A stretch of 64,000 bases of DNA, from positions 1,120,001 to 1,184,000 of the forward strand of contig CP000066.1 in assembly GCA_000002445.1 (NCBI GenBank), given 5' to 3'. Each line of letters begins with the position of its first letter. Position 1 is the stretch's first letter. Under the pieces are notes generated by a model. The model saw only the letters and a list, made by a program, of their open reading frames with translations. It was not told the origin of the DNA and did no database searches. The DNA is from Trypanosoma brucei (taxonomy: Eukaryota). Shown here one piece after another: positions 1 through 39,289 of this stretch. The position numbers and the translations under genes were made by a program.

Positions 1-111
1 GGATGCGGAAACTCGCAGCAGCGACTGGCATTCAACGCCGAACAAAAGGGAAGTGAAGATTCGTCCGTTACCGCATCTGCTGAGGGGGTTTATTCATATC
101 ATTGGAAAGGA

Positions 112-1025: not shown

Positions 1026-1109
1026 GTGACGAAGGAAGGAGGTAAACCAGAAGCATATATTAAACTTGCGGTGGCCGCGCGTGCCAATTCCATCCATAAC
1101 GTCATTGGC

Positions 1110-1589: not shown

Positions 1590-1740
1590 AACTCCCCTTC
1601 TTTTCCCTTCCCTTCCCTTTCCTTCCCTATCCAAAGGCGGCTAACAAAAAGAAAAAAAAAGAAGAGCATGAGGAGGAGGAGGAGGAGGAGGAGGAGGGAA
1701 AACAAAAACAAAAACAAACACAAACACACACACAAGGAGG
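1590..1740. repeat. simple-sequence block: (CCCTT)-type polypyrimidine, (GAG)n about 10 units at about 1668-1698, (CA)n/(CAAA)n at about 1700-1735
   Basis: Read directly in the sequence immediately 3' of the AP-1 sigma stop codon. Confidence 0.8.
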
Positions 1741-2645
1741 GTTCGAAATGAAGCGTGTCGCCTCCATTTTTTTTTCTTTTTCCCACCACCACTCTCGCCT
1801 CTGTAGTTGCTGCAGCTTTCTCTTCCCTTCTTTCATCTGTTGTTTTTTCCACCATTTTCTTTCTGTGTGTTTTGCTTCTCTTACAGAAATTAAACTTTTA
1901 TTCCTATTTGTATTGCCTTTTCTTTCTTGTGGAAACGTTCCGTTCACCATCAGAAGTTACTCTTGTTCCTCGCAAAGGTCGCAAAGGATTAACGTGATTA
2001 TTATTATTATCTTTAAAAGGAAGAAAGAGGGAAATAAAGAGAAGGAGAGTCAAATTTCATAGGCAACATCGCGTTAAATATGGACTAACGCGGCGATTAA
2101 GTGGTCAAAAGTTACTCGACCAACAAAGTCAATGGTATCGCCGGTAGCGTCAAAAATAAAAAGTGCATCTCACCGGATCATCCCTCAATAGCGCACCAAA
2201 CAGTCCTCCACGTGAGAGCGGAAGCAAAAGGCAGAAAAGGTGCATGAACAAATGCGGAATAAGCCCCGCGCCCTAATAGCAACAGAAATAGTAAAAATGG
2301 TATCGTCGCCGCCCAAGAAAAAAATTAAATTGTAACTCCCCCCATTCAAAACCGAAAATACGAGAAGATCATAAATAAAACAGCATTCTCACTTTGGCAG
2401 TATCGGCTTTCAAAAGATTCCACAGCTATTCACACAAAAAAAATAAATAAAATTTACACAACCCGTTTTCAAGAATAAAAAACACAGATCTATATAAAAT
2501 CCATCAAAAGCGAAAAAAAAAATAATGAACAAAGAGTAAGGGAAATGCTATACTATCAGCCGCCGCGTCTTTTCCCATAAAAAGAAATCGAGACATAAGT
2601 CTCGCCCCCGTCGCTCTTTAAAAGACCCCTCCCCTTTTTTTCCGT

Positions 2646-3510
2646 GTGGCCCAGGGCGGTGGGGAAACGGAAGGGTGTGTGTTTGTATGCTTTTGGGGCC
2701 GCCTGATTTGTCAGGGTGGCCCAGGGCGGTGGGGAAACGGAAGGGTGTGTGTTTGTATGCTTTTGGGGCCGCCTGATTTGTCAGGGTGGCCCAGGGCGGT
2801 GGGGAAACGGAAGGGTGTGTGTTTGTCTGCTTTTGGGGCCGCCTGATTTGTCAGGGTGGCCCAGGGCGGTGGGGAAATGGAAGGGTGTGTGTTTGTATGC
2901 TTTTGGGGCCGCCTGATTTGTCAGGGTGGCCCAGGGCGGTGGGGAAATGGAAGGGTGTGTGTTTGTATGCTTTTGGGGCCGCCTGATTTGTCAGGGTGGC
3001 CCAGGGCGGTGGGGAAACGGAAGGGTGTGTGTTTGTATGCTTTTGGGGCCGCCTGATTTGTCAGGGTGGCCCAGGGCGGTGGGGAAACGGAAGGGTGTGT
3101 GTTTGTATGCTTTTGGGGCCGCCTGATTTGTCAGGGTGGCCCAGGGCGGTGGGGAAATGGAAGGGTGTGTGTTTGTATGCTTTTGGGGCCGCCTGATTTG
3201 TCAGGGTGGCCCAGGGCGGTGGGGAAACGGAAAGGTGTGTGTTTGTATGCTTTTGGGGCAGCCTGATTTGTCAGGGTGGCCCAGGGCGGCGGGGAAACGG
3301 AAGGGTGTGTGTTTGTATGCTTTTGGGGCCGCCTGATTTGTCAGGGTGGCCCAGGGCGGTGGGGAAACGGAAGGGTGTGTGTTTGTATGCTTTTGGGGCA
3401 GCCTGATTTGTCAGGGTGGCCCAGGGCGGTGGGGAAACGGAAGGGTGTGTGTTTGTATGCTTTTGGGGCCGCCTGATTTGTCAGGGTGGCCCAGGGCGGT
3501 GGGGAAATGG
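2646..3510 (+). repeat. tandem array, 70-bp unit x about 12.4 copies, G-rich on plus strand (consensus GGTGGCCCAGGGCGGTGGGGAAACGGAAGGGTGTGTGTTTGTATGCTTTTGGGGCCGCCTGATTTGTCAG)
   Basis: Exact 70-nt periodicity is visible (ORF-track pseudo-ORFs start every 70 nt: 2646, 2716 ... 3346). Units are about 98% identical, with a few point variants (AAACGG/AAATGG, GTATGC/GTCTGC, GGGCC/GGGCA). Each unit carries four G3-4 tracts. Confidence 0.95.
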
Positions 3511-6500: not shown

Positions 6501-7209
6501 CGCCACCAACCGAAGCTCACGGCCAATTTTAAACGGGTCGAAATGCGGTTTCGAAGGTCCCACAGCCGCGCGGCTTCGCGCTAACGAAGAACCTCTATAC
6601 GATCCGATGGCGGATTTTCGGGTGCCACAGAAAACGATATCCCACGCGGGGGAGCAACGCCCAGCCGCCCGCGGAAATTCCGAGGGGCGCTGACGCGCGA
6701 CGGGAGCGCCGTTCGGCGAATGGAACGTCTCCGGGTCCCTCTTTACCTGCGGTCCACACTACCTTCAAAATATTTGCGGGCACCTTCCCGACGAGACCTG
6801 TGCAGACAAAGTTGCAGTTCATCCAACCCAGCTTGAAACACAAAGAAACGAAAAGCAAGCATCTACGAAACCCGCGAAGCAGTGACAGCAATAACGGAGC
6901 AACTCACCCGCAGCAATCTAGGCACAGTAGATGAGTTGAGCCATCTCTTTCTTTCTTTTCAGTTACCTTACGGCAGCCCCAGGTGCACGTCCGCAAGGTA
7001 AACGCTAATAGAGGTCAGAACCATGTCGTATCGGTTGCGACGTACTTCTATCCCTTTTTCTTCGTAGTGTACCGGTCTTCCTTCACCCCATTACCTTACC
7101 TTCGCTCCCTTCCTTCAATCCCCTTTGTGGCGCAGAAGCGCCTTGCGCTTGCCGATGCCAGTCCCAGTCCATATTGAATTCGCAACTCCTCTGCAGTGCC
7201 TTTGGACCC

Positions 7210-26001: not shown

Positions 26002-27608
26002 TCGCAGCCTTCTTTCTCCCATGTACGCACACGAATATGTAGACACAAAGAAAAAGAAAGGGGTGCAGACATTAAAGCAAAAGGAAGGAGAACTGGGATG
26101 CATTCACGCCAGTAACGGACAGTCCTGTGGTTACATGCAGCAATGCACAGGTAACAAGTGCATCAAGAGACGGCCCAGAGGCGAAATTAGATAGACAAAG
26201 TCAGAACATGGAACCAAAAAAAAAAAACAGTACCAAAACGACGATATACAAACATATGGTTATTTATGCATGTATTACATGTTAAACCAAATTAATTATA
26301 CAAGCCGTTTTTATATCCTTACCATTAGTAGCTCCAAAGGTGAACCCATTACCTTTCCATCAGAAACACAATGTCGTATCTAATTATAAGTTGCAAAAGC
26401 AACGTCACTGCGAGGTCCACCCCCACATCCGGGTTTAAGAACCATAACAGTGACAGCAAATCACGCGAATCACTAAATATTAGCACCGTGTAAGCAACAA
26501 ATAGCGCGGATATAAACGCATCCGGTAGGTGAAGTGCATCAGAAAAGTGGGCAGGCAGCCGATTCACGTCATTTTTCCACCAACTAAAACACACACGGCA
26601 AAACATAACATGAAAATAAAGAAGCAGCCTTGGCACCACCTTGTGGATAAAATGAGGGAGGAAACAGTTCGTGGATCCACAATACAATACTGAGGTAATG
26701 CATTTGGAACACGCCACTCATTAACGTTCACCGAAGAAGCAAGAGGCAGTAAAGCCGGCATGACTACGAAAAAAAAAAAGAAACGAAATAGCCGTTCCCA
26801 GCCAGAGTGGCACACTTCAAAACATGACACAATGCATCCTCCCTCACTTGCCAAAGTAAGAGCAGGAAGATCGAGAATTACAGAATGTACGATGCTCGAA
26901 TAAAATTGCCATTTACAAGTTTACGTACCCTTTTCTCTTTGTTATTTCCCTCTTTTTAATCACATATCAGCTGCTTACCATCATTTTATTCCTTAGACCT
27001 TCCAGAATCCTCACACCCCACGCCCCTTTAAGGTTAAGGGACATTAATAAACAATTTTTGAGCATAAGCAGTTCCAGCGGAGGACTCAAGAGCCTCAAAA
27101 GGCCATCCCACTAACCTATAAATTCCACACCTCAAGTGTCAACAGCAGCTTTTCCAAACACACACACAAACACAAAAAAAAAACGGAGCAGTGGGAACGC
27201 CAATGAGCAGGAAATACGAAAAATGGAATAAACAGCGAGAGACTGCAACCAGACAGCACACGACAACCATTCAAAACGTATTTAAAAAACATTATATATT
27301 CATTCCCACTACCTTTACACAACAACAATATCAGCAATATATCCACAACAAGATTTCGAAATTTATACAACAAAACACAGAATAAAAGGAAAAAAATATA
27401 TACATATGTATAAGCTACGCAAAGAAAAAAAAAGTACATGTAAAAAGGATTATAAACAGATCATTAATAAAAAAACTAAGGCCAAATAAACATACTACAC
27501 ACCAGCATAATTGATGAAAACGAGAACCGTAACACAGACTCAATTAACAAAACAGCAACTTACAATACAAGAGATCAACGACACAAAACATTTTGTTCAC
27601 CCGAAACG

Positions 27609-27731
27609 TTACGTCTCCCGCAGATGTGTCGCAAAAACGGAGAATCCGTAAGTCGATGATACAACAAGACCAGCATAAACTCCTGCCATCAGCATGCGTA
27701 CTCGCGCAAGGTCATCGACAAGGTAAACCAT
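27609..27731 (-). pseudogene. 5' gene remnant (40 codons) of a nodulin-like MFS copy, marking the downstream end of the tandem array
   Basis: Reverse-complement reads ATGGTTTACCTTGTCGATGACCTTGCGCGAGTACGCATGCTGATGGCAGGAGTTTATGCTGGTCTTGTTGTATCATCGACTTACGGATTCTCCGTTTTTGCGACACATCTGCGGGAGACGTAA. This gives MVYLVDDLARVRMLMAGVYAGLVVSSTYGFSVFATHLRET*, identical to the N-terminus of copies B/C. It is preceded by the same conserved upstream block (27732 to about 27975) and followed by unrelated sequence. Confidence 0.75.
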
Positions 27732-28264
27732 AACTGCAGGGACTGCGGGTCGGTTTGTTCTGAGTGGAAGTGCGCAAGTAGTAGCTCTATTTTACTCTTT
27801 GTGTGGAAACATTTGTCAGGTAAAGAAGAAAAATGAGTAATAAGAGTGTTAGAAAAGGAATCCATAGAGAGGTAAAGGGAAGCACTGATATGTATCACTG
27901 CCGTGTTGCAACGGCTTCGTGACGGAAAAAACAAAGGTTTCGCAGAGACTGGGAAACTGACCACGTAAAATCATTCAAATAGCGTTTTATTTTTACCACA
28001 AGGTGGAAGAGCGAAACGTGGCTACCTGCTCACACGAACAAAACACTCTAAGGTAAAACAAAATCCGCCCATCAACCACTAAGAGTGATCAAATGGCACA
28101 CCCTCTTGCTTGCAAGAAGCAACACAATGTGGGAGTGAGGAGCAATTATTATATTGATTAGTAGTCACATCAAGGATAAATTCAACGTAACAAGATTTAT
28201 GAGATAGAGGCAAATGCATATTTTCAATTTAGAGTTCAGGTACGGCAACAGCTGTAAAACAACC

Positions 28265-30052
28265 CTACTGCTGCGCTGCTCCGCCACTGTGTGAGCCCCC
28301 TTCATTTGGCTGCCCCGCATCCTCTGTAACAGGAGCAGCGACACCACTCATCTCATCAGCTGGCTCATTACACCTGTTCTGCTCAGCATTAATGAAACGC
28401 GAAAATCTGAAGTGGACAATCGCTGCAGCGATTACTGCCACAATATTGACACCCATCAGTATGAGCATCTGGTTTTTGACACACGAAGGGTTTTTACACT
28501 CGGGTTTCGTACCAAGCTTCTCAGCCTCAGCATCGTACATACCACCGAACATGAAGAGGTTGAGCGCTATCGTTGACACAATTCCGGAGGAAAAGCCGAA
28601 GTTATAGTGCTTTCCCAAATCCTGTGAATACATTATACGAAACGCAAGCACAACACTTCCCCAACCTGCTCCGTTACCCAGCGACCCAAGGAAGAAAGGA
28701 AGGATCAGCGCGTTAGCGGGAAGCAACGCGAAGAGCAGGAAGGCGATGCACAACATCAGAGGGCAAAATGGGAGCGCAATTGTTGTGGGAAACGTTTTAA
28801 GCCCCTCTCGCTGCCGCCGTGTCAGCACCATATCCAGATATCCCATAGACATGCGACCAACAGCACTGCCAACAGATATCATGGTGATATACAGTGTTAG
28901 AGTGGAGCTTTTCTTCTCACCGTAACTTTTGCTCTCATAAATTTGTGCAGCGTTCATCTGCATGACGACCGCAGTACCCCACACGCCGAAGCATGTAAGC
29001 CACATGCACCAAAGATCCACGGTAAGCAAGTGCTGCCAGAAGGACCCGCTGTACTGCGGCAATGGCTTCACCTCGTTCTTCGTTGTAGCTACCGCTGATT
29101 CGGTCACAACATCCTCCAGTGCCTCTCCAATTGTGTCCATATCCGTAGGGCGCACTGGAGTATATCGTCCAAGCCATTGAAACGGCAACGCAACGACACA
29201 AAATGATGCCATCATGAGCACTGCAATAATCGAAAAGGCCAAATAGGCAGCCGGAGGAAGCTTTACATATCCACCAATGAGTGATTGTGTGGTGAGAAAC
29301 AACAGCAGGCTGAGGACGAGTCCCACAGCTGTCTTCATCCTTCTGGGAGGCGCAGGCTGGTTCATGTATAACTGAAGTGTCTGCTGTCGCTTCGTCCACT
29401 CCTCTTCACTTAGCCGTTGCTTCCGCCACGCACAAGGAAAGTACATGGGAAGCCGAATGAGAACGAAGGCAATGAGTGACACGACCACCAACTGTATGGC
29501 AACAAAGTACGCGAAACCCGAGTAGTTGTTTTTTTCCACATCATCGGATGTGGTATCCTTAAACCACCCGTTGAAGTAAGCCATTAGCACTCCGGTACCG
29601 AGACCACCAATTGTCTTGGACACGAGCACAATGTAACCCCTGTCAAGTGGAAACTGCAGCATCAGTGGCATAACAGAACTTACATCCAAGATAGGAAATG
29701 CACAGTATACAAGGGCATTAAAAAAAGACAAAAGGCCAACGCCTGGACTCGCTATCTTTCTGTCGAAGGTGAGACCAAAAAGCAGGAAGCCCAAGAATCC
29801 AAGGAAACCAGCAATTGGCAGGACCACCATCGGACCAGCGTAATCGAACAGGGCGCCGCTGGGAAAACTGAAATACATAATGCAATTGCCAACGGTACTG
29901 ATAGTTGTAACTTCAGTTTGTGTTAAATTGAGTTTTTTCTTCAGGAATGGCGTGAAAATCGAAAAGCAGTATGCCTTTGAGACACCCAACTCCGCATACA
30001 TGCCTGACATCAGCATCCGCATACGGGCAAGGTCATCGACAAGGTAAACCAT
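28265..30052 (-). CDS. nodulin-like major facilitator superfamily membrane protein, array copy A (595 aa; N-term type alpha, C-term type long)
   Basis: ATG verified. About 12 predicted TM segments. The N-terminal domain matches the Nodulin-like pattern (Y-x-F-S...L-x-L-[ST]-Q-[ST]...ISTVG...G...G-x-L-x-D...P). C-terminal tail ...VTEDAGQPNEGGSHSGGAAQQ. Confidence 0.8.
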   Translation of the reverse strand: MVYLVDDLARMRMLMSGMYAELGVSKAYCFSIFTPFLKKKLNLTQTEVTTISTVGNCIMYFSFPSGALFDYAGPMVVLPIAGFLGFLGFLLFGLTFDRKIASPGVGLLSFFNALVYCAFPILDVSSVMPLMLQFPLDRGYIVLVSKTIGGLGTGVLMAYFNGWFKDTTSDDVEKNNYSGFAYFVAIQLVVVSLIAFVLIRLPMYFPCAWRKQRLSEEEWTKRQQTLQLYMNQPAPPRRMKTAVGLVLSLLLFLTTQSLIGGYVKLPPAAYLAFSIIAVLMMASFCVVALPFQWLGRYTPVRPTDMDTIGEALEDVVTESAVATTKNEVKPLPQYSGSFWQHLLTVDLWCMWLTCFGVWGTAVVMQMNAAQIYESKSYGEKKSSTLTLYITMISVGSAVGRMSMGYLDMVLTRRQREGLKTFPTTIALPFCPLMLCIAFLLFALLPANALILPFFLGSLGNGAGWGSVVLAFRIMYSQDLGKHYNFGFSSGIVSTIALNLFMFGGMYDAEAEKLGTKPECKNPSCVKNQMLILMGVNIVAVIAAAIVHFRFSRFINAEQNRCNEPADEMSGVAAPVTEDAGQPNEGGSHSGGAAQQ

Positions 30053-30300
30053 AACTGCAGGGACTGCGGGTCGGTTTGTTCTGAGTGGAAGTGCGCAAGT
30101 AGTAGCTCTATTTTACTCTTTGTGTGGAAACATTTGTCAGGTAAAGAAGAAAAATGAGTAATAAGAGTGTTAGAAAAGGAATCCATAGAGAGGTAAAGGG
30201 AAGCACTGATATGTATCACTGCCGTGTTGCAACGGCTTCGTGACGGAAAAAACAAAGGTTTCGCAGAGACTGGGAAACTGACCACGGAAAACCATTCAAA
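30053..30300 (-). promoter_or_regulatory. conserved upstream block (polypyrimidine tract + AG acceptor) repeated 5' of array copies A-D and of the gene remnant
   Basis: Minus-strand reads ...ccctttacctctctatggattccttttctaacactcttattactcatttttcttctttacctgacaaatgtttccacacaaagagtaaaatagag...ATG. Equivalent blocks at 27732 to about 27975, 32314 to about 32560, 34650 to about 34900, 36969 to about 37215. Absent upstream of copy E. Confidence 0.5.
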
Positions 30301-30561
30301 TAGCGTTTCTAAACTGTCGTGCAGAAAAGAATGAAGTAAAGGTAGGACCGTTGTAGGAAATATATATTTCGTGAATTTGTTAAAAGAAAAAAAAACAACA
30401 TCATAAAAAACGACAGATGGCAACACTACTCATGATAATGAAGCCGCCATTAAAAAAATAATGAAAAAAAAATAACGGTACAACGAAGTTTTGATTATAA
30501 AAGAAACCAAGCATAAAATATAACCCTACTGCACTCCCGTAATGTCACCGTGGTCACCTCC

Positions 30562-32313
30562 TTAATTTTCTTTTTCTGAATCCTCTGTAACAGGAGCAGC
30601 GACACCACTCATCTCATCAGCTGGCTCATTACACCTGTTCTGCTCAGCATTAATGAAACGCGAAAATCTGAAGTGGACAATCGCTGCACCGACCGCTGCC
30701 ACAACATTGACACCCATCAGTATGAGCATCTGGTTTTTGACACACGAAGGTTGCTTACACTCGGGTTTCGTACCAAGCTTCTCAGCCTCAGCATCGTACA
30801 TACCACCGAACATGAAGAGGTTGAGCGCTATCGTTGACACAATTCCGGAGGAAAAGCCGAAGTTATAGTGCTTTCCCAAATCCTGTGAATACATTATACG
30901 AAACGCAAGCACACCACTTCCCCAACCTGCTCCGTTACCCAAAGCCCCAAGGAAGAAAGGAAGGATCAGCGCGTTAGCGGGAAGCAACGCGAAGAGCAGG
31001 AAGGCGATGCACAACATCAGAGGGCAAAATGGGAGCGCAATTGTTGTGGGAAACGTTTTAAGCCCCTCTCGCTGCCGCCGTGTCAGCACCATATCCAGAT
31101 ATCCCATAGACATGCGACCAACAGCACTGCCAACAGACATCATGGTGATATACAGTGTTAGAGTGGAGCTTTTCTTCTCACCGTAACTTTTGCTCTCATA
31201 AATTTGGGCAGCGTTCATCTGCATGACAGTTCCAGTACCCCACATACCAAAGCATGTAAGCCACATGCACCAAAGATCCACGGTAAGCAAGTGCTGCCAG
31301 AAGGACCCACTGTACTGCGGCAATGGCTTCACCTCGTTCTTCGTTGTAGCCACCGCTGATTCGGTCACAACATCCTCCAGTGCCTCTCCAATTGTGTCCA
31401 TATCCGTAGGGCGCACTGGAGTATATCGTCCAAGCCATTGAAACGGCAACGCAACGACACAAAATGATGCCATCATGAGCACTGCAATAATCGAAAAGGC
31501 CAAATAGGCAGCCGGAGGAAGCTTTACATATCCACCAATGAGTGATTGTGTGGTGAGAAACAACAGCAGGCTGAGGACGAGTCCCACAGCTATCTTCATC
31601 CTTCTGGGAGGCGCAGGCTGGTTCATGTATAACTGAAGTGTCTGCTGTCGCTTCGTCCACTCCTCTTCACTTAGCCGTTGCTTCCGCCACGCACAAGGAA
31701 AGTACATGGGCATGCGAGTTACGCTGAGAGCAATGAGTGACACGACCACCAACTGTATGGCAACAAAGTACGCGAAACCCGAGTAGTTGTTATTGCTCAA
31801 GTCATCGGATGTGGTATCCTTAAACCACCCGTTGAAGTAAGCCATTAGCACCCCGGTACCGAGACCACTGATTGTCTTGGACACGAGCACAACATAACCC
31901 CTGTCAAGTGGAAACTGCAGCATCAGTGGCATAATCGTCGAAACATCCAACCACGGCGTCCCCAGATAAAGAATAGCGTTAAAAGTGGAGAAGAGACCGA
32001 CGCTGGGGTTCGCTATCTTTCCATCGAAGGTGAGGCCAAAAAGCAGGAAGCCCAAGAATCCAAGGAAACCAGCAATTGGCAGGACCACCATCGGACCAGC
32101 GTAATCGAACAGGGCACCACCAATAAAACTGCAGTAACCGATGCAATTGCCAACGGTACTGATAGTTGTAATGTCACTCTGTGAAAGACGATATTTCTCC
32201 CGCAGATGTGCCGCAAAAACAGAGAATCCGTAAGTCGATGATACAACAAGACCAGCATAAACTCCTGCCATCAGCATGCGTACTCGCGCAAGGTCATCGA
32301 CAAGGTAAACCAT
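30562..32313 (-). CDS. nodulin-like MFS membrane protein, array copy B (583 aa; N-term type beta, C-term ...VTEDSEKEN)
   Basis: ATG verified at 32311-32313. The core is >95% identical to the other copies. Unique short C-terminal tail and unique 3' flank (30427-30561). Confidence 0.8.
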   Translation of the reverse strand: MVYLVDDLARVRMLMAGVYAGLVVSSTYGFSVFAAHLREKYRLSQSDITTISTVGNCIGYCSFIGGALFDYAGPMVVLPIAGFLGFLGFLLFGLTFDGKIANPSVGLFSTFNAILYLGTPWLDVSTIMPLMLQFPLDRGYVVLVSKTISGLGTGVLMAYFNGWFKDTTSDDLSNNNYSGFAYFVAIQLVVVSLIALSVTRMPMYFPCAWRKQRLSEEEWTKRQQTLQLYMNQPAPPRRMKIAVGLVLSLLLFLTTQSLIGGYVKLPPAAYLAFSIIAVLMMASFCVVALPFQWLGRYTPVRPTDMDTIGEALEDVVTESAVATTKNEVKPLPQYSGSFWQHLLTVDLWCMWLTCFGMWGTGTVMQMNAAQIYESKSYGEKKSSTLTLYITMMSVGSAVGRMSMGYLDMVLTRRQREGLKTFPTTIALPFCPLMLCIAFLLFALLPANALILPFFLGALGNGAGWGSGVLAFRIMYSQDLGKHYNFGFSSGIVSTIALNLFMFGGMYDAEAEKLGTKPECKQPSCVKNQMLILMGVNVVAAVGAAIVHFRFSRFINAEQNRCNEPADEMSGVAAPVTEDSEKEN

Positions 32314-32861
32314 AACTGCAGGGACTGCGGGTCGGTTTGTTCTGAGTGGAAGTGCGCAAGTAGTAGCTCTATTTTACTCTTTGTGTGGAAACATTTGTCA
32401 GGTAAAGAAGAAAAATGAGTAATAAGAGTGTTAGAAAAGGAATCCATAGAGAGGTAAAGGGAAGCACTGATATGTATCACTGCCGTGTTGCAACGGCTTC
32501 GTGACGGAAAAAACAAAGGTTTCGCAGAGACTGGGAAACTGACCACGTAAAATCATTCAAACAGCGTTTCTAAACTGTCGTGCAGTAAAGAATAAAGTAA
32601 AGGAAGAGCGAAACGTGGCTGCCTGCTCACACGAACAAAACACTCTAAGGTAAAACAAAATCCACCCATCAACCACTAAGAGTGATCAAACGGCACACCC
32701 TCTTGTTTGCAAGAAGCAACACAATGTGGGAGTGAGGAGCAATTATTATATTGATTAGTAGTCACATCAAGGATAAATTCAACGTAACAAGATTTATGAG
32801 ATAGAGGCAAATGCATATTTTCAATTTAGAGTTCAGGTACGGCAACAGCTGTAAAACAACC

Positions 32862-34649
32862 CTACTGCTGCGCTGCTCCGCCACTGTGTGAGCCCCCTTC
32901 ATTTGGCTGCCCCGCATCCTCTGTAACAGGAGCAGCGACACCACTCATCTCATCAGCTGGCTCATTACACCTGTTCTGCTCAGCATTAATGAAACGCGAA
33001 AATCTGAAGTGGACAATCGCTGCAGCGACCGCTGCCACAACATTGACACCCATCAGTATGAGCATCTGGTTTTTGACACACGAAGGGTTTTTACACTCGG
33101 GTTTCGTACCAAGCTTCTCAGCCTCAGCATCGTACATACCACCGAACATGAAGAGGTTGAGCGCTATTGTCGCTGCGACACCGGAGGAAAAGCCGAAGTT
33201 ATAGTGCTTTCCCAAATCCTGTGAATACATTATACGAAACGCAAGCACACCACTTCCCCAACCTGCTCCGTTGCCCAAAGCCCCAAGGAAGAAAGGAAGG
33301 ATCAGCGCGTTAGCGGGAAGCAACGCGAAGAGCAGGAAGGCGATGCACAACATCAGAGGGCAAAATGGGAGCGCAATTGTTGTGGGAAACGTTTTAAGCC
33401 CCTCTCGCTGCCGCCGTGTCAGCACCATATCCAGATATCCCATAGACATGCGACCAACAGCACTGCCAACAGACATCATGGTGATATACAGTGTTAGAGT
33501 GGAGCTTTTCTTCCCACCGTAACTTTTGCTCTCATAAATTTGGGCAGCGTTCATCTGCATGACAGTTCCAGTACCCCACATACCAAAGCATGTAAGCCAC
33601 ATGCACCAAAGATCCACGGTAAGCAAGTGCTGCCAGAAGGACCCACTGTACTGCGGCAATGGCTTCACCTCGTTCTTCGTTGTAGCTACCGCTGATTCGG
33701 TCACAACATCCTCCAGTGCCTCTCCAATTGTGTCCATATCCGTAGGGCGCACTGGAGTATATCGTCCAAGCCATTGAAACGGCAACGCAACGACACAAAA
33801 TGATGCCATCATGAGCACTGCAATAATCGAAAAGGCCAAATAGGCAGCCGGAGGAAGCTTTACATATCCACCAATGAGTGATTGTGTGGTGAGAAACAAC
33901 AGCAGGCTGAGGACGAGTCCCACAGCTATCTTCATCCTTCTGGGAGGCGCAGGCTGGTTCATGTATAACTGAAGTGTCTGCTGTCGCTTCGTCCACTCCT
34001 CTTCACTTAGCCGTTGCTTCCGCCACGCACAAGGAAAGTACATGGGCATGCGAGTTACGCTGAGAGCAATGAGTGACACGACCACCAACTGTATGGCAAC
34101 AAAGTACGCGAAACCCGAGTAGTTGTTATTGCTCAAGTCATCGGATGTGGTATCCTTAAACCACCCGTTGAAGTAAGCCATTAGCACCCCGGTACCGAGA
34201 CCACTGATTGTCTTGGACACGAGCACAACATAACCCCTGTCAAGTGGAAACTGCAGCATCAGTGGCATAATCGTCGAAACATCCAACCACGGCGTCCCCA
34301 GATAAAGAATAGCGTTAAAAGTGGAGAAGAGACCGACGCTGGGGTTCGCTATCTTTCCATCGAAGGTGAGGCCAAAAAGCAGGAAGCCCAAGAATCCAAG
34401 GAAACCAGCAATTGGCAGGACCACCATCGGACCAGCGTAATCGAACAGGGCACCACCAATAAAACTGCAGTAACCGATGCAATTGCCAACGGTACTGATA
34501 GTTGTAATTTCACTCTGTGAAAGACGATATTGCTTGCGCATGTAGACGGAAAAAAGGGAGAATCCGTAAGTCGATGATACAACAAGACCAGCATAAACTC
34601 CTGCCATCAGCATGCGTACTCGCGCAAGGTCATCGACAAGGTAAACCAT
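32862..34649 (-). CDS. nodulin-like MFS membrane protein, array copy C (595 aa; N-term type beta, C-term type long)
   Basis: ATG verified at 34647-34649. 3' flank 32547-32861 is identical in type to that of copies A and E. Confidence 0.8.
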   Translation of the reverse strand: MVYLVDDLARVRMLMAGVYAGLVVSSTYGFSLFSVYMRKQYRLSQSEITTISTVGNCIGYCSFIGGALFDYAGPMVVLPIAGFLGFLGFLLFGLTFDGKIANPSVGLFSTFNAILYLGTPWLDVSTIMPLMLQFPLDRGYVVLVSKTISGLGTGVLMAYFNGWFKDTTSDDLSNNNYSGFAYFVAIQLVVVSLIALSVTRMPMYFPCAWRKQRLSEEEWTKRQQTLQLYMNQPAPPRRMKIAVGLVLSLLLFLTTQSLIGGYVKLPPAAYLAFSIIAVLMMASFCVVALPFQWLGRYTPVRPTDMDTIGEALEDVVTESAVATTKNEVKPLPQYSGSFWQHLLTVDLWCMWLTCFGMWGTGTVMQMNAAQIYESKSYGGKKSSTLTLYITMMSVGSAVGRMSMGYLDMVLTRRQREGLKTFPTTIALPFCPLMLCIAFLLFALLPANALILPFFLGALGNGAGWGSGVLAFRIMYSQDLGKHYNFGFSSGVAATIALNLFMFGGMYDAEAEKLGTKPECKNPSCVKNQMLILMGVNVVAAVAAAIVHFRFSRFINAEQNRCNEPADEMSGVAAPVTEDAGQPNEGGSHSGGAAQQ

Positions 34650-35210
34650 AACTGCAGGGACTGCGGGTCGGTTTGTTCTGAGTGGAAGTGCGCAAGTAGT
34701 AGCTCTATTTTACTCTTTGTGTGGAAACATTTGTCAGGTAAAGAAGAAAAATGAGTAATAAGAGTGTTAGAAAAGGAATCCATAGAGAGGTAAAGGGAAG
34801 CACTGATATGTATCACTGCCGTGTTGCAACGGCTTCGTGACGGAAAAAACAAAGGTTTCGCAGAGACTGGGAAACTGACCACGTAAAATCATTCAAATAG
34901 CGTTTTATTTTTACCACAAAGTGGAAGAGAGAAAAAGAAGAGTTAGGAAAAAAAAAACGTTCGAAGACAGAAAAAATAGTAACCCACTAATCACTGAGAG
35001 TGGATATACAACATACTTTTAATACTAAAAAAAAATTTAAAAACTTATTTCTTGAATCGGGCCGCACCCTCACGCAGAAACAACAACCACATCTAACAGA
35101 AAAGAAAACATACGATTTTTAACACAAAGAAGGATAACACACGGTAAGACAGAAAAATACTATGGAAATATGCAAAAAATACTATTTCGTTTTTCTTAAC
35201 CCCCCAAAAA

Positions 35211-36968
35211 TTATTGCTTCTTTCCTGAATGTCCACCGCTAGTAACAGGAGCAGCGACACCACTCATCTCATCAGCTGGCTCATTACACCTGTTCTGCTC
35301 AGCATTAATGAAACGCGAAAATCTGAAGTGGACAATCGCTGCACCGACCGCTGCCACAACATTGACACCCATCAGTATGAGCATCTGGTTTTTGACACAC
35401 GAAGGTTGCTTACACTCGGGTTTCGTACCAAGCTTCTCAGCCTCAGCATCGTACATACCACCGAACATGAAGCGGTTGAGCGCTATTGTCGCTGCGACAC
35501 CGGAGGAAAAGCCGAAGTGGTAGTGCTTTCCCAAATCCTGTGAATACATTATACGAAACGCAAGCACAACACTTCCCCAACCTGCTCCGTTACCCAAAGC
35601 CCCAAGGAAGAAAGGAAGGATCAGCGCGTTAGCGGGAAGCAACGCGAAGAGCAGGAAGGCGATGCACAACATCAGAGGGCAAAATGGGAGCGCAATTGTT
35701 GTGGGAAACGTTTTAAGCCCCTCTCGCTGCCGCCGTGTCAGCACCATATCCAGATATCCCATAGACATGCGACCAACAGCACTGCCAACAGATATCATGG
35801 TGATATACAGTGTTAGAGTGGAGCTTTTCTTCTCACCGTAACTTTTGCTCTCATAAATTTGGGCAGCGTTCATCTGCATGACGACCGCAGTACCCCACAC
35901 GCCAAAGCATGTAAGCCACATGCACCAAAGATCCACGGTAAGCAAGTGCTGCCAGAAGGACCCGCTGTACTGCGGCAATGGCTTCACCTCGTTCTTCGTT
36001 GTAGCTACCGCTGATTCGGTCACAACATCCTCCAGTGCCTCTCCAATTGTGTCCATATCCGTAGGGCGCACTGGAGTATATCGTCCAAGCCATTGAAACG
36101 GCAACGCAACGACACAAAATGATGCCATCATGAGCACTGCAATAATCGAAAAGGCCAAATAGGCAGCCGGAGGAAGCTTTACATATCCACCAATGAGTGA
36201 TTGTGTGGTGAGAAACAACAGCAGGCTGAGGACGAGTCCCACAGCTATCTTCATCCTTCTGGGAGGCGCAGGCTGGTTCATGTATAACTGAAGTGTCTGC
36301 TGTCGCTTCGTCCACTCCTCTTCACTTAGCCGTTGCTTCCGCCACGCACAAGGAAAATACATGGGCATGCGAGTTACGCTGAGAGCAATGAGTGACACGA
36401 CCACCAACTGTATGGCAACAAAGTACGCGAAACCCGAGTAGTTGTTTTTTTCCACATCATCGGATGTGGTATCCTTAAACCACCCGTTGAAGTAAGCCAT
36501 TAGCACCCCGGTACCGAGACCACTGATTGTCTTGGACACGAGCACAACATAACCCCTGTCAAGTGGAAACTGCAGCATCAGTGGCATAATCGTCGAAACA
36601 TCCAACCAAGAAAATGTGCAATTTACGAGAGCATTGTAAAAGCAAAAGAGACCGACGCTGGGGTTCGCTATCTTTCCATCGAAGGTGAGACCAAAAAGCA
36701 GGAAGCCCAAGAATCCAAGGAAACCAGCAATTGGCAGGACCACCATCGGACCAGCGTAATCGAACAGGGCACCACCAGGGAAACTGAAGTACAGCATGCA
36801 GGTTCCAACGGTACTGATAGTTGTAATGTCTCCCTGTGTCATATTAAATTTGCTCCTTAAGAATGGCGTGAAAATCGAAAAGCAGTATGCCTTTGAGACA
36901 CCCAATCCAGCATAAACTCCTGCCATCAGCATCCGCATACGGGCAAGGTCATCGACAAGGTAAACCAT
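35211..36968 (-). CDS. nodulin-like MFS membrane protein, array copy D (585 aa; N-term type alpha, C-term ...PVTSGGHSGKKQ)
   Basis: ATG verified at 36966-36968. Unique C-terminal tail and unique AT-rich 3' flank (34883-35210). Confidence 0.8.
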   Translation of the reverse strand: MVYLVDDLARMRMLMAGVYAGLGVSKAYCFSIFTPFLRSKFNMTQGDITTISTVGTCMLYFSFPGGALFDYAGPMVVLPIAGFLGFLGFLLFGLTFDGKIANPSVGLFCFYNALVNCTFSWLDVSTIMPLMLQFPLDRGYVVLVSKTISGLGTGVLMAYFNGWFKDTTSDDVEKNNYSGFAYFVAIQLVVVSLIALSVTRMPMYFPCAWRKQRLSEEEWTKRQQTLQLYMNQPAPPRRMKIAVGLVLSLLLFLTTQSLIGGYVKLPPAAYLAFSIIAVLMMASFCVVALPFQWLGRYTPVRPTDMDTIGEALEDVVTESAVATTKNEVKPLPQYSGSFWQHLLTVDLWCMWLTCFGVWGTAVVMQMNAAQIYESKSYGEKKSSTLTLYITMISVGSAVGRMSMGYLDMVLTRRQREGLKTFPTTIALPFCPLMLCIAFLLFALLPANALILPFFLGALGNGAGWGSVVLAFRIMYSQDLGKHYHFGFSSGVAATIALNRFMFGGMYDAEAEKLGTKPECKQPSCVKNQMLILMGVNVVAAVGAAIVHFRFSRFINAEQNRCNEPADEMSGVAAPVTSGGHSGKKQ

Positions 36969-37501
36969 AACTGCAGGGACTGCGGGTCGGTTTGTTCTGA
37001 GTGGAAGTGCGCAAGTAGTAGCTCTATTTTACTCTTTGTGTGGAAACATTTGTCAGGTAAAGAAGAAAAATGAGTGATAAGAGTGTTAGAAAAGGAATCC
37101 ATAGAGAGGTAAAGGGAAGCACTGATATGTATCACTGCCGTGTTGCAACGGCTTCGTGACGGAAAAAACAAAGGTTTCGCAGAGAATGGGAAACTGACCA
37201 CGTAAAATCATTCAAATAGCGTTTTATTTTTACCACAAAGTGGAAGAGCGAAACGTGGCTGCCTGCTCACACGAACAAAACACTCTAAGGTAAAACAAAA
37301 TCCGCCCATCAACCACTAAGAGTGATCAAATGGCACACCCTCTTGCTTGCAAGAAGCAACACAATGTGGGAGTGAGGAGCAATTATTATATTGATTAGTA
37401 GTCACATCAAGGATAAATTCAACGTAACAAGATTTATGAGATAGAGGCAAATGCATATTTTCAATTTAGAGTTCAGGTACGGCAACAGCTGTAAAACAAC
37501 C

Positions 37502-39289
37502 CTACTGCTGCGCTGCTCCGCCACTGTGTGAGCCCCCTTCATTTGGCTGCCCCGCATCCTCTGTAACAGGAGCAGCGACACCACTCATCTCATCAGCTGG
37601 CTCATTACACCTGTTCTGCTCAGCATTAATGAAACGCGAAAATCTGAAGTGGACAATCGCTGCAGCGACCGCTGCCACAATATTGACACCCATCAGTATG
37701 AGCATCTGGTTTTTGACACACGAAGGGTTTTTACACTCGGGTTTCGTACCAAGCTTCTCAGCCTCAGCATCGTACATACCACCGAACATGAAGAGGTTGA
37801 GCGCTATCGTTGACACAATTCCAGAACTGTAGCCGAAGTGGTAGTGCTTTCCCAAATCCTGTGAATACATCGTACGAATTACAAGCACACAACACCCCCA
37901 ACCTGCTCCGTTGCCCAAAGCCCCAAGGAAGAAAGGAAGGATCAGCGCGTTAGCGGGAAGCAACGCGAAGAGCAGGAAGGCGATGCACAACATCAGAGGA
38001 CCAAATGGGAGCGCAATTGTTGTGGGAAACGTTTTAAGCCCCTCTCGCTGCCGCCGTGTCAGCACCATATCCGTGAACCCCATAGACACGCGACCAACAG
38101 CACTGCCAACAGACATCATGGTGATATACAGTGTTAGAGTGGAGCTTTTCTTCCCGCCGTAACTTTTGCTCTCATAAATTTGTGCAGCGTTCATCTGCAT
38201 GACAGTTCCAGTACCCCACACGCCGAAGCATGTAAGCCACATGCACCAAAGATCCACGGTAAGCAAGTGCTGCCAGAAGGACCCACTGTACTGCGGCAAT
38301 GGCTTCACCTCGTTCTTCGTTGTAGCCACCGCTGATTCGGTCACAACATCCTCCAGTGCCTCTCCAATTGTGTCCATATCCGTAGGGCGCACTGGAGTAT
38401 ATCGTCCAAGCCATTGAAACGGCAACGCAACGACACAAAATGATGCCATCATGAGCACTGCAATAATCGAAAAGGCCAAATAGGCAGCCGGAGGAAGCTT
38501 TACATATCCGCCAATGAGTGATTGTGTGGTGAGAAACAACAGCAGGCTGAGGACGAGTCCCACAGCTATCTTCATCCTTCTGGGAGGCGCAGGCTGGTTC
38601 ATGTATAACTGAAGTGTCTGCTGTCGCTTCGTCCACTCCTCTTCACTTAGCCGTTGCTTCCGCCACGCACAAGGAAAGTACATGGGCATGCGAGTTACGC
38701 TGAGAGCAATGAGTGACACGATCAGCAATCTAGCGGCAATGAAGTACATGAAACCCGAGTAGTTGTTTTTTTCCACATCATCGGATGTGGTATCCTTAAA
38801 CCACCCGTTGAAGTAAGCCATTAGCACCCCGGTACCGAGACCACTGATTGTCTTCAACACGAGCACAACATAACCCCTGTCAAGTGGAAACTGCAATATC
38901 GCCGGCATGATCGTTGCAACATCTAATGTTGGGATCCCCGAATAAACTATTGCGTCGAAGACACAGAAAAGGGTTAAAGTCGGGTTCGCTATCTTTCCAT
39001 CGAAGGTGAGACCAAAAAGCAGGAAGCCCAAAGACCCTAGAAACCCACCAAGGGGGAGTAGCACCATCGGACCAGCGTAATCGAACAGAGCACCGATTGG
39101 AAAGCTGCAGTAACCGATGCAATTGCCGACGGTACTGATAGTTGCAATTTCACTTTGCGACAGACGATACTTTTTTCGCAGAAGAACGGCCATTAATGTG
39201 AAGCAATATGGGGCCGCTGTAGAAGCCATTGTATACACCCCGGAAGCTAACATGCGTACTCGCGCAAGGTCATCGATAATATACGTCAT
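37502..39289 (-). CDS. nodulin-like MFS membrane protein, array copy E (595 aa; divergent N-term type gamma MTYIIDDLARVRMLASGVYTMASTAAPYCF..., C-term type long)
   Basis: ATG verified at 39287-39289. First copy in transcription order. Unique upstream flank (39290 to about 39520) lacks the conserved block. About 60 substitutions are concentrated in the first roughly 190 residues. Confidence 0.8.
   Translation of the reverse strand: MTYIIDDLARVRMLASGVYTMASTAAPYCFTLMAVLLRKKYRLSQSEIATISTVGNCIGYCSFPIGALFDYAGPMVLLPLGGFLGSLGFLLFGLTFDGKIANPTLTLFCVFDAIVYSGIPTLDVATIMPAILQFPLDRGYVVLVLKTISGLGTGVLMAYFNGWFKDTTSDDVEKNNYSGFMYFIAARLLIVSLIALSVTRMPMYFPCAWRKQRLSEEEWTKRQQTLQLYMNQPAPPRRMKIAVGLVLSLLLFLTTQSLIGGYVKLPPAAYLAFSIIAVLMMASFCVVALPFQWLGRYTPVRPTDMDTIGEALEDVVTESAVATTKNEVKPLPQYSGSFWQHLLTVDLWCMWLTCFGVWGTGTVMQMNAAQIYESKSYGGKKSSTLTLYITMMSVGSAVGRVSMGFTDMVLTRRQREGLKTFPTTIALPFGPLMLCIAFLLFALLPANALILPFFLGALGNGAGWGCCVLVIRTMYSQDLGKHYHFGYSSGIVSTIALNLFMFGGMYDAEAEKLGTKPECKNPSCVKNQMLILMGVNIVAAVAAAIVHFRFSRFINAEQNRCNEPADEMSGVAAPVTEDAGQPNEGGSHSGGAAQQ

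What the first reader, a model, noticed from the sequence alone, without database searches (positions are those of the whole stretch)
27609..39289. Mosaic tandem array of nodulin-like MFS genes: three N-terminal domain types x three C-terminal/3'-flank types on an invariant core
All five intact copies share an almost identical core of about 430 aa (from MPLMLQFPLDRGY to ...NRCNEPADEMSGVAAPVT). The first roughly 130-190 residues come in three forms. Alpha is in copies A and D (ARMRMLM.G.YA.LGVSKAYCFSIFTPFL). Beta is in B, C and the truncated remnant (ARVRMLMAGVYAGLVVSSTYGFS.F). Gamma is in E. The tails and downstream flanks come in three forms: long ...EDAGQPNEGGSHSGGAAQQ in A, C and E; ...EDSEKEN in B; ...SGGHSGKKQ in D. 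The combinations are reshuffled (A alpha/long, B beta/short1, C beta/long, D alpha/short2, E gamma/long). This patchwork is the signature of repeated segmental gene conversion or unequal crossing-over. The variability sits in the nodulin-like N-terminal membrane domain and the cytosolic tail, so paralogues may differ in substrate or gating and in regulation.
Basis: seen in the sequence. Interest (0 to 1): 0.7.

Follow-up and report, generated by a model that had tools for sequence, protein, structure and literature searches.

The report
Trypanosome pyruvate transporter gene array
This is the known five-gene pyruvate-exporter array (TbPT, Tb927.3.4070-4110) on Trypanosoma brucei chromosome 3, and its gene-conversion patchwork was published in 2007 and 2010, so the finding is real but not new.

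Summary
Five minus-strand genes of 583-595 aa plus a 40-codon remnant lie at 27609-39289. They have three N-terminal clades and three tail/3'UTR types, as described.

The window is T. b. brucei TREU927 chromosome 3. The ORFs match GenBank AAZ10440-44 exactly. This is the TbPT pyruvate/H+ transporter family (Sanchez 2013), not the PAD array.

Recombination is supported by my PHI-type permutation test (p<0.0005). It was already published for this array: Jackson 2007 ("Tb17", Fig. 3) and Jackson 2010 (PHI p<0.001, 6-9 breakpoints).

The core is not invariant: 46 of 449 positions vary. The core is the part being reshuffled and homogenised, and its patches differ between TREU927, T. b. gambiense, T. 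b. equiperdum and the cloned TbPT0. The N-terminal 135 residues and the 3'UTR types stay fixed by position.

The deep divergence sits in islands at TM1-TM2 and TM4 (pS 0.4-0.97), flanked by homogenised sequence (pS about 0.03).

One possibly new point: nine isoform-defining residues recur as the same residue pairs in the T. congolense array. T. vivax shows the same island architecture. This suggests selection is maintaining distinct transporter isoforms.

The parts
27609..27731 (-). Truncated sixth copy (remnant R). It has a B-type 5' end. Homology to the other copies stops about 118 nt after the ATG (about 27614). This marks the 3' boundary of the array.
   Evidence: The remnant is conserved in DAL972. 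T. congolense has an analogous remnant, TCIL3000_3_2720.
27732..27979 (-). Shared 248-nt block upstream of the remnant ATG. It contains a polypyrimidine tract and is probably the splice-acceptor/5'UTR region. The same block precedes A, B, C and D but not E.
   Evidence: It is about 100% identical in all copies.
27980..28264 (-). Long-type 3'UTR-specific segment of copy A. It is 37% U and has no UAUUUUU motif.
   Evidence: It is near-identical to the flank of E, and to most of C's flank.
28265..30052 (-). Copy A = Tb927.3.4070 (AAZ10440). N-terminus is alpha subtype A, with the long tail.
30301..30561 (-). B-type 3'UTR-specific segment. It is 44% U with 2 UAUUUUU motifs and 3 U runs of 7 or more. 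It begins with the relic of the long-tail coding sequence.
30562..32313 (-). Copy B = Tb927.3.4080 (AAZ10441). Beta N-terminus. Its tail EDSEKEN was created by a premature TAA.
32562..32861 (-). 3' flank of copy C. It is long type for about 265 nt, then switches to the B-type distal motif (TTTACTTTATTCTTTACTGCACGACAGTTTAG). This is a conversion patch in an otherwise B-like gene.
   Evidence: It matches the event described by Jackson 2007.
32862..34649 (-). Copy C = Tb927.3.4090 (AAZ10442). Beta N-terminus, long tail. It differs from B mainly in four clustered patches: nt 93-141, 1470-1482, 1560-1563 and the tail.
34898..35210 (-). D-type 3'UTR-specific segment. It is 46% U with 3 UAUUUUU motifs.
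35211..36968 (-). Copy D = Tb927.3.4100 (AAZ10443). N-terminus is alpha subtype D, tail SGGHSGKKQ. It is the closest window copy to the functionally characterised TbPT0 clone (97.7% over 577 aa).
36774..36938 (-). Divergence island 1 in copy D coordinates (aa 11-65, TM1 to the first half of TM2). Paralogue pS is 0.42-0.90. It holds the isoform-defining residues 21, 23, 26, 27, 56, 58 and 59.
36576..36659 (-). Divergence island 2 in copy D coordinates (aa 104-131, TM4). Paralogue pS is 0.43-0.97. It holds residues 114, 117 and 127.
37217..37501 (-). Long-type 3'UTR-specific segment of copy E.
37502..39289 (-). Copy E = Tb927.3.4110 (AAZ10444). It is the first gene of the array in the direction of transcription. 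Gamma N-terminus, long tail. Its 5' flank is unique, so repeat homology starts at its ATG.
37808..37895 (-). E-specific core patch (CDS nt 1395-1482, 'GCCVLVIRT...HFGY'). In the DAL972 orthologue this patch is replaced by c/d-type sequence. It is a subspecies-specific conversion tract.
   Evidence: 40 of the 44 E/e differences lie in the core; about 25 of them fall between nt 1395 and 1482.

Best explanation
The region is the TbPT array of Trypanosoma brucei brucei TREU927 chromosome 3 (Tb927.3.4070-4110). It holds five tandem genes for plasma-membrane pyruvate/H+ MFS transporters of the Nodulin-like family, plus a 5' remnant of a sixth copy. All are transcribed polycistronically in the order E>D>C>B>A>remnant.

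Shown here. Non-reciprocal gene conversion between copies keeps most of each gene, and the 248-nt block upstream of each ATG, almost identical within a genome. This is concerted evolution. It also scatters short patches among copies, so the core mosaic differs from strain to strain. Three compartments resist homogenisation and stay fixed by array position:
- two old divergence islands, in TM1-TM2 and in TM4;
- a small patch in TM6;
- the C-terminal tail together with about 260-310 nt of 3'UTR.

Inferred.
- The islands persist because selection keeps functionally different N-domain cavity residues, for example Lys26/Ala27 versus Ser26/Thr27 in TM1.
- The three 3'UTR types confer different mRNA regulation.
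- E is the most divergent copy because it sits at the array edge, where there is no upstream homology.
For: Identity.
- The window ORFs end in exact copies of TREU927 proteins AAZ10440-44.
- 'Pyruvate transporter 0' (AFV15805) is 97.7% identical to D.
- Papers name Tb927.3.4070 as the pyruvate transporter and describe the TbPT family as an essential H+/pyruvate exporter.

Fold.
- Pfam PF06813 is hit above threshold.
- The AF2 model has pLDDT 90.2 and pTM 0.89.
- The best Foldseek hits are the SfMCT lactate transporter and OxlT.

Recombination.
- PHI-type permutation: observed 0.245 versus 0.385 expected, p<0.0005.
- Incompatible split patterns occur along the CDS: DA|ECB, DC|EBA and DB|ECA.
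- Published results agree: PHI p<0.001, 6 LRT breakpoints and 9 GARD breakpoints, and a 3'UTR conversion of copy 3.

Concerted evolution.
- Core paralogue dS is 0.03-0.10, similar to orthologue dS of 0.03-0.08. N-terminal paralogue dS is 0.25-0.92, against orthologue dS of 0.02-0.06.
- Three sites are fixed in all five copies of one genome and differ in all five copies of the other.
- Core trees cluster by species (Jackson 2007).

Islands.
- pS is 0.42-0.97 in aa 11-65 and aa 104-131. It is 0.03-0.17 in aa 66-103 and aa 132-171.
- In T. vivax, islands of 73-78% identity sit inside 100% identical genes.

Strain differences. The N-terminal 135 aa are stable while core patches are reshuffled in DAL972, T. 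b. equiperdum and the TbPT0 clone.

Selection hint.
- 9 of 10 coincident isoform-defining sites carry the same residue pair in T. congolense (hypergeometric P = 5.7e-9).
- Variation is concentrated in TM1 (24 positions), TM4 (20) and TM2 (10). The large loop at aa 289-344 has none.
- Position 27 aligns with the SfMCT ligand-gate residue L28.

Regulation hint.
- The B and D 3'UTRs are U-rich with UAUUUUU motifs. The long type has none.
- The two copies listed as about 5-fold up in bloodstream forms.4070 and .4090, both carry the long 3'UTR.
Against: - There is no pairwise signal of positive selection in the islands (pN/pS 0.3-0.5). Persistence could simply reflect divergence too great for conversion to start.
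- An NJ tree of aa 11-135 still groups copies by species. The sharing with T. congolense therefore covers individual residues, not whole segments, and could be convergence.
- T. congolense DNA could not be obtained, so codons could not be compared.
- The T. congolense proteins come from a 2011 draft assembly.
- The TbPT0 clone's D-N-terminus-plus-long-tail combination could be a PCR chimera. Published primers anneal to the shared ends.
- Transport has been shown only for the TbPT0 clone (recalled from Sanchez 2013, which is not held). No isoform-specific function or expression has been measured for B, D or E.
Confidence: 0.85

Rival explanations
1. Assembly artefact. The array would be a collapse or chimera of allelic or dispersed copies, and the mosaic would be created by the assembler.
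For: Near-identical 2.3-kb repeats are hard to assemble. The exact-protein look-up of window ORFs B and E returned nothing. For B this is because of different annotated start codons. For E (595 aa in both) it is unexplained.
Against: The independently assembled DAL972 chromosome has the same five genes, in the same order, with the same lengths, N-terminal types and tail types, and the same remnant. The window ORFs equal GenBank AAZ10440-44. Jackson 2007 reports single reads spanning breakpoints for most events.
Confidence: 0.02
2. Simple divergence after duplication, with no recombination. The patchwork would reflect uneven mutation or constraint along the gene.
For: Purifying selection (pN/pS 0.1-0.5) could keep parts of the protein similar.
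Against: Synonymous sites are homogenised too. D-B pS is 0.03 in aa 66-103 but 0.43-0.49 in the flanking islands. 38.5% of informative site pairs are incompatible, and they are clustered by distance (PHI p<0.0005). Core patches differ between subspecies at orthologous positions. Three substitutions are shared by all five paralogues of one genome.
Confidence: 0.03
3. Reciprocal unequal crossing-over, rather than non-crossover gene conversion, is the main generator of the mosaic.
For: The terminal 5' remnant and the tandem layout show that unequal exchange created the array in the first place. T. vivax has more copies, with 7 or more start motifs.
Against: Copy number, order and remnant are identical in TREU927 and DAL972, even though their core patches differ. 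B and C differ by internal patches of 4-50 nt with identical sequence on both sides. A single crossover cannot produce that.
Confidence: 0.1
4. Contingency-like diversification. Conversion would be used to create new surface-protein variants under host immune pressure. This idea was floated for Tb17 by Jackson 2007.
For: It is a surface membrane protein. Jackson 2007 suggested that conversion may disperse motifs faster than it homogenises them. Strain-specific core mosaics exist.
Against: Variation lies mainly in transmembrane helices. The large loop at aa 289-344 has no variable position at all. pN/pS is below 1. The N-terminal types are stable between strains, and the same residues recur in T. 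congolense. That is the opposite of rapid diversification.
Confidence: 0.05

Closest known systems
TbPT0-TbPT4 pyruvate transporter family of T. brucei (Sanchez 2013, J Biol Chem 288:14428; Tb927.3.4070-4110)
   Same: It is this locus. The window ORFs equal the TREU927 proteins. The cloned 'pyruvate transporter 0' is 97.7% identical to copy D. It is a five-member cluster, up-regulated in bloodstream forms, and an essential H+/pyruvate exporter.
   Different: Nothing structural differs. The cloned TbPT0 is a mosaic not present in TREU927: D N-terminus, B/C and A core patches, and the long tail. It may be a strain variant or a PCR chimera.
Array 'Tb17' in Jackson 2007 (BMC Evol Biol 7:54) and array 17 in Jackson et al. 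2010 (PLoS NTD 4:e658)
   Same: It is the same array, and the same conclusion was reached: concerted evolution plus gene-conversion mosaics. The details are a 206-bp 3'UTR conversion of copy 3, PHI p<0.001, 6-9 breakpoints, and 5 copies in both subspecies.
   Different: In the passages I could read, those papers treat whole genes and report species-specific clades. They do not describe the discrete TM1-TM2 and TM4 divergence islands, the recurrence of the same isoform residues in T. congolense, or the mapping onto the MFS fold.
PAD (proteins associated with differentiation) array, Tb927.7.5930-6000, chromosome 7
   Same: It is also a tandem array of Nodulin-like MFS carboxylate transporters in T. 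brucei. It also shows recombination (array 61).
   Different: It is only about 30% identical (P0055), lies on another chromosome, and has a different function (citrate/cis-aconitate signal reception). The window array is not PAD.
T. brucei hexose transporter THT1/THT2 array (array 105 in Jackson 2010)
   Same: It is a tandem transporter array with conserved coding cores and recombination signals. From my own knowledge, not checked here, its isoform-specific 3'UTRs drive stage-specific expression.
   Different: It belongs to a different MFS family (sugar porters). In THT the isoform differences in kinetics and stage expression have been shown experimentally. For TbPT they have not.
SLC16/MCT monocarboxylate transporters and the bacterial homologue SfMCT (PDB 6G9X/6HCL)
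   Same: It is the closest solved fold (Foldseek E about 1e-8, TM-score 0.71-0.82 normalised to target length). It is the only sequence-detectable PDB relative (E = 1e-6 over TM1-TM3). It is also an H+-coupled monocarboxylate transporter.
   Different: Identity is 11-14%. TbPT has two extra helices between the bundles (a 6+2+6 arrangement) and belongs to Pfam Nodulin-like, not MCT. The SLC16 signature residues were not tested.

Membership tests
Nodulin-like MFS (Pfam PF06813) | Match to the PF06813 profile above the gathering score | tested here: met
   A scores 32.8 bits and E 38.8 bits, against a cut-off of 24.7. All homologues carry PF06813.
Major facilitator superfamily fold | Two six-helix bundles with pseudo-twofold symmetry | tested here: met
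   The AF2 model has pLDDT 90.2 and pTM 0.89, with helices arranged 6+2+6. 371 PDB MFS chains match at E<=0.001, led by SfMCT and OxlT.
TbPT pyruvate transporter family (Tb927.3.4070-4110) | Sequence identity to the annotated TREU927 genes and to cloned TbPT0 | tested here: met
   All five ORFs end in exact copies of AAZ10440-44. TbPT0 (AFV15805) is 97.7% identical to D. The contig is 1,653,225 bp.
TbPT pyruvate transporter family (Tb927.3.4070-4110) | Five clustered members on chromosome 3, flanked by syntenic genes | tested here: met
   Five genes plus a remnant lie between a 690-aa hypothetical gene and an Asn-synthase-like gene. The layout is the same in DAL972.
TbPT pyruvate transporter family (Tb927.3.4070-4110) | High-affinity H+-coupled pyruvate transport, and essentiality in bloodstream forms | not testable with these tools
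   This rests on the literature only. The primary paper, PMC3656298, is not held. Activity of individual copies A-E is unknown.
PAD carboxylate transporter family | Close sequence relationship to PAD1-8 on chromosome 7 | tested here: not met
   PAD-type proteins (P0051, P0053, P0055) are 30-31% identical and come from other contigs.
Multigene array under concerted evolution by gene conversion | Paralogues within a genome are more alike than orthologues between species | tested here: met
   The core tree gives 100% bootstrap for the T. congolense and T. vivax clades and for T. brucei copies A-D. E joins them without a supported node. Jackson 2007's SH test agrees.
Multigene array under concerted evolution by gene conversion | Statistical evidence of recombination and phylogenetic incongruence along the alignment | tested here: met
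   PHI-type permutation p<0.0005 in both subspecies. Published PHI p<0.001, with 6 LRT and 9 GARD breakpoints.
Multigene array under concerted evolution by gene conversion | Substitutions spread to all copies within one lineage | tested here: met
   Sites 741, 837 and 1689 are fixed in all five TREU927 copies and differ in all five DAL972 copies. Seven further sites show a 4/5 or better versus 4/5 or better pattern, giving ten in all.
Selection-maintained divergence islands within a converting gene family | Sharp islands of high synonymous divergence flanked by homogenised sequence | tested here: met
   pS is 0.42-0.97 in the islands and 0.03-0.17 between them. In T. vivax, islands are 73-78% identical within 100% identical genes.
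Selection-maintained divergence islands within a converting gene family | Functional difference between the isoforms defined by the islands | not testable with these tools
   Only indirect evidence is available: the same residue pairs in T. congolense, the TM1/TM2/TM4/TM7 location, and alignment to SfMCT L28. pN/pS is below 1.
SLC16 / MCT family | Sequence membership and the conserved TM8 arginine / TM1 lysine signature | not tested
   Only a remote N-terminal HMM match (E = 1e-6) and fold similarity were found.

The most novel reading that the evidence does not exclude
The array may encode at least three functionally distinct transporter isoforms: A-like, D-like and B/C-like. They would be defined by a handful of residues in cavity-lining helices:
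- TM1: positions 21, 23, 26, 27
- TM2: positions 56, 58, 59
- TM4: positions 114, 127
- TM5: position 149

Selection would have kept these residues distinct since before the T. brucei / T. congolense split, while gene conversion erased almost every other paralogue difference. T. vivax would have arrived at, or retained, the same architecture.

The isoforms would differ in substrate range or kinetics, for example pyruvate versus other 2-oxo or aromatic keto acids, and would be paired with different 3'UTR regulatory types.

In the passages I could read of the papers that analysed this array, I saw no description of this.
Probability: 0.35. Interest if true: 0.55.

Novelty: already known. Interest (0 to 1): 0.25.

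Why it matters
As given, the finding re-discovers a published case. The locus is the essential bloodstream-form pyruvate exporter of T. brucei, a proposed drug target. Its gene-conversion mosaic was used as a textbook figure in 2007.

The remaining value is practical and modest.
- Any copy-specific work on TbPT (RNAi, tagging, PCR cloning, read mapping) has to allow for a core that is reshuffled between strains. Only the first 135 codons and the 3'UTRs identify a copy reliably.
- If the conserved TM1/TM2/TM4 islands mark functionally different isoforms, the 'pyruvate transporter' is really a small set of carriers. Inhibitor design and metabolic models would then need to treat them separately.
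- The array would also be a clean natural example of selection holding a few sites against gene conversion.

Tried and rejected
- PAD array hypothesis (my first guess from 'nodulin-like MFS array in a trypanosome'). Rejected: PAD-type proteins are only about 30% identical and lie on other contigs.
- Reading Sanchez 2013. It is not held under its DOI or its PMC id. Its content is cited only through other papers and from memory.
- Fetching T. congolense DNA for a codon-level test of ancestry versus convergence. P0005 is not on record.
- Exact-protein look-ups of window copies B and E, to find other strains. Nothing is on record. For B this is because TREU927 annotates an internal start. For E it is unexplained.
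- Testing whether the N-terminal types form trans-species clades. An NJ tree of aa 11-135 clusters by species, so whole-segment orthology is rejected. Only site-level sharing remains.
- Looking for positive selection. Pairwise pN/pS is below 1 in every sizeable segment. The only values at or above 1 are in the 30-codon TM6 patch and rest on very few sites (D-B: 0.2 synonymous and 4.8 non-synonymous differences; E-B: 1.10). These are not interpretable.
- Two-gene-unit duplication as the explanation for the alternating long 3'UTR (spacing 4597/4640 nt). Rejected in favour of a conversion patch, because C is B-like on both sides of the long-type segment.
- Getting 3D coordinates to measure cavity exposure.
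- tRNA scan of the window: none found.


Full report
OBSERVATION

Five long ORFs lie head-to-tail on the minus strand:
- A 28265-30052
- B 30562-32313
- C 32862-34649
- D 35211-36968
- E 37502-39289

A 40-codon ORF with a B-type start sits at 27609-27731. The repeat period is 2261-2336 nt. The quoted alpha, beta and gamma N-terminal motifs and the three tails are all present, in the copies stated. All copies match Pfam Nodulin-like above threshold.

Four corrections of detail are needed.
- E reads MPAILQFPLDRGY, not MPLMLQFPLDRGY.
- The 'invariant' core (aa 128-576) has 46 of 449 variable positions and is 92-99% identical pairwise.
- A and D share only 79.5% identity over aa 1-127.
- The three tails are homologous. 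B's short tail results from an in-frame TAA, and the relic of the long-tail reading frame and its original stop are still visible downstream.

IDENTITY

The window is Trypanosoma brucei brucei TREU927 chromosome 3. The five ORFs end in exact copies of GenBank AAZ10440-AAZ10444. In locus-tag order, A = Tb927.3.4070 through E = Tb927.3.4110.

This is not the PAD array. PAD-type proteins are about 30% identical. It is the TbPT pyruvate transporter cluster. A GenBank protein named 'pyruvate transporter 0' (AFV15805) is 97.7% identical to D.

Reviews and later papers describe TbPT0/PT1 (Tb927.3.4070) as follows:
- a plasma-membrane, proton-coupled pyruvate exporter;
- lethal in bloodstream forms when knocked down;
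- up-regulated in bloodstream forms.

The primary paper (Sanchez 2013) is not in the library.

An AlphaFold model of D is confident (pLDDT 90.2, pTM 0.89). It shows a 6+2+6 helix MFS. Its best solved-structure matches are the SLC16-like L-lactate transporter SfMCT and the oxalate transporter OxlT. SfMCT is also the only PDB relative detectable by sequence.

ANATOMY OF THE REPEAT

Each intergenic region has two parts. A type-specific segment of 261-313 nt directly follows the divergence point inside the last codons. A 248-nt block, about 100% identical in all copies, then precedes the next ATG. This block is pyrimidine-rich and is presumably the splice-acceptor/5'UTR region.

E, the first gene transcribed, has an unrelated 5' flank. 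Repeat homology starts at its ATG. It ends about 118 nt into the remnant.

The remnant is conserved in T. b. gambiense DAL972. T. congolense has an analogous N-terminal fragment at the same end of its array, next to its A-like copy.

RECOMBINATION

Among the five window copies, 38.5% of informative site pairs are incompatible. Incompatibility rises with distance: the PHI-type statistic is 0.245 observed against 0.385 in permutations, p<0.0005. DAL972 gives the same result.

The N-terminal third supports ((A,D),(B,C),E). The 3' part of the CDS instead shows DC|EBA (nt 1470-1482) and DB|ECA (nt 1560-1747).

B and C are identical over almost the whole gene. They differ mainly in four clustered patches: nt 93-141, 1470-1482, 1560-1563 and the tail.

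C's long-type tail and 3'UTR are flanked on both sides by B-like sequence, so they form a conversion patch.

This has already been published.
- Jackson 2007 used this array ('Tb17', Tb927.3.4070) as Figure 3. The paper inferred conversion of the 3'UTR of copy 3 by copy 5, showed species-specific clades, and discussed a possible diversifying role of conversion.
- Jackson et al. 2010 list it as array 17. There are five copies in both subspecies, PHI p<0.001, 6 LRT breakpoints and 9 GARD breakpoints.

WHERE CONVERSION ACTS

In CDS nt 1-600, positional orthologues are nearly identical (dS 0.02-0.06). Paralogues are old (dS 0.25-0.92, except C-B at 0.035). In nt 601-1731, paralogue dS (0.03-0.10) equals orthologue dS (0.03-0.08). 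Three substitutions are fixed in all five copies of one genome and differ in all five copies of the other.

E and its DAL972 orthologue differ at 40 core sites. About 25 of these fall between nt 1395 and 1482, which is one tract.

Painting other T. brucei sequences onto the window copies shows the following:
- The D-lineage gene keeps its first 135 residues unchanged in TREU927, DAL972, T. b. equiperdum and the TbPT0 clone.
- It carries a different combination of core patches in each of them.
- The clone also has the long tail. This could be a PCR chimera, because published primers anneal to the shared ends.

The N-terminus and tail types are therefore the stable, position-specific part. The core is what is being homogenised and reshuffled.

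Copy number and order are unchanged between subspecies, and the patches are short. This points to non-crossover conversion rather than unequal crossing-over.

DIVERGENCE ISLANDS

The N-terminal divergence is not uniform:
- aa 11-65 (TM1 to the first half of TM2): pS 0.42-0.90
- aa 104-131 (TM4): pS 0.43-0.97
- aa 66-103 and aa 132-171, between the islands: pS 0.03-0.17 among A-D

pN/pS is 0.3-0.5 throughout, so there is no pairwise sign of positive selection.

Of 112 paralogue-variable positions, 24 are in TM1, 20 in TM4 and 10 in TM2. TM3 has 4, all specific to E. The large loop at aa 289-344 has none. This argues against immune-driven surface diversification.

CROSS-SPECIES PATTERN (possibly new)

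The T. congolense array has two well-supported N-terminal groups. Their 18 fixed differences coincide with the 35 D-versus-B/C differences of T. brucei at 10 sites. Nine of these 10 carry the same residue pair in the same orientation (hypergeometric P = 5.7e-9):
- G/V at 23
- K/S at 26
- A/T at 27
- T/N at 56
- M/I at 58
- L/G at 59
- L/I at 114
- A/G at 361
- V/T at 362

Three of the six residues unique to TCIL3000_3_2730 (E21, V127, G149) are the same residues that are unique to copy A.

Whole-segment trees nevertheless cluster by species. In T. congolense, nearly everything except these sites has been homogenised.

The T. vivax array shows the same architecture at the DNA level. It has two N-terminal types that differ in discrete islands of 73-78% identity (nt 61-120, 181-300 and 541-600, plus a weaker 90-92% patch at nt 361-420). 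These sit inside genes that are otherwise 100% identical.

In the HMM alignment to SfMCT, TbPT position 27 aligns with L28 (posterior about 0.8) and position 26 with L27. L28 is the TM1 residue that gates the ligand site in the crystal structures.

I read this as selection holding a few cavity-helix residues against conversion. That implies functionally different isoforms. The reading is inferred, not shown. Convergence and draft-assembly error in T. congolense cannot be excluded, because no T. congolense DNA could be retrieved.

REGULATION

The type-specific 3' segments correspond to the 3'UTRs. The B and D types are 44-46% U, with 2-3 UAUUUUU motifs and runs of 7 or more U. The long type (A, C, E) is 37% U with none.

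The only two copies listed as about 5-fold up in cultured bloodstream forms in one microarray study are .4070 and .4090. Both carry the long type.

From general knowledge of trypanosome gene regulation, not tested here, U-rich 3'UTR elements destabilise mRNAs in bloodstream forms. Differential regulation by 3'UTR type is therefore a reasonable but unproven reading.

VERDICT

The finding is real and correctly described, and its mechanism was correctly guessed. It is an already characterised locus whose mosaic evolution is in print. The one addition worth a specialist's attention is the conserved island architecture and the shared isoform residues across salivarian trypanosomes.

Noticed in passing
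window 2646-3507: A G-rich tandem repeat with a 70-nt period, 12.3 copies and 98% matches. It lies in an ORF-poor stretch (about 1-7200) at the downstream end of the minus-strand gene run. GC skew is strongly positive there (+0.30 at 2-4 kb), opposite to the rest of the window. This may be a strand-switch or termination region.
   Followed up: no
window 28935-29399, 31196-31660, 33532-33996, 35851-36315, 38172-38636: A 154-aa GTG-start ORF recurs in another frame of the minus strand inside the homogenised core of every copy. It is most likely a by-product of the repeated CDS rather than a gene.
   Followed up: no
window 30023-30052, 32278-32313, 34614-34649, 36939-36968: The TREU927 GenBank proteins for A-D start at internal Met11 or Met13. 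E and all DAL972 orthologues start at the upstream ATG. The MVYLVDDLAR/MxxxVDDL start is conserved across trypanosomatids, so the upstream ATG is probably the true start and the TREU927 annotation is inconsistent.
   Followed up: partly
L002 3038-18708 (T. vivax SOPI01000639.1): The T. vivax array has at least seven start motifs. Several gene calls are shortened or garbled (356, 464 and 582 aa). P0019 looks frameshifted between about residues 90 and 180, so some copies may be pseudogenes or carry assembly errors.
   Followed up: partly
T. congolense proteins P0069 and P0070 (TCIL3000_3_2770 and _2720): Both are annotated with the same 67-residue N-terminal extension (MSVCVCSRCLL...). This is probably an over-extended ORF through the shared upstream block. 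P0070 is a 226-aa truncated copy at the array end, mirroring the T. brucei remnant.
   Followed up: partly
window 26104-27626: A low-GC stretch (about 0.40) of 1.5 kb lies between the remnant and the Asn-synthase-like gene. It has no similarity elsewhere in the window and is 96% identical to DAL972. It is presumably the long 3'UTR/intergenic region that replaced the rest of the sixth copy.
   Followed up: partly
window 23431-26103: The 890-aa flanking ORF matches Pfam Asn_synthase over only about 60 residues (aa 409-467). It is a divergent asparagine-synthase-domain protein of unclear function.
   Followed up: no
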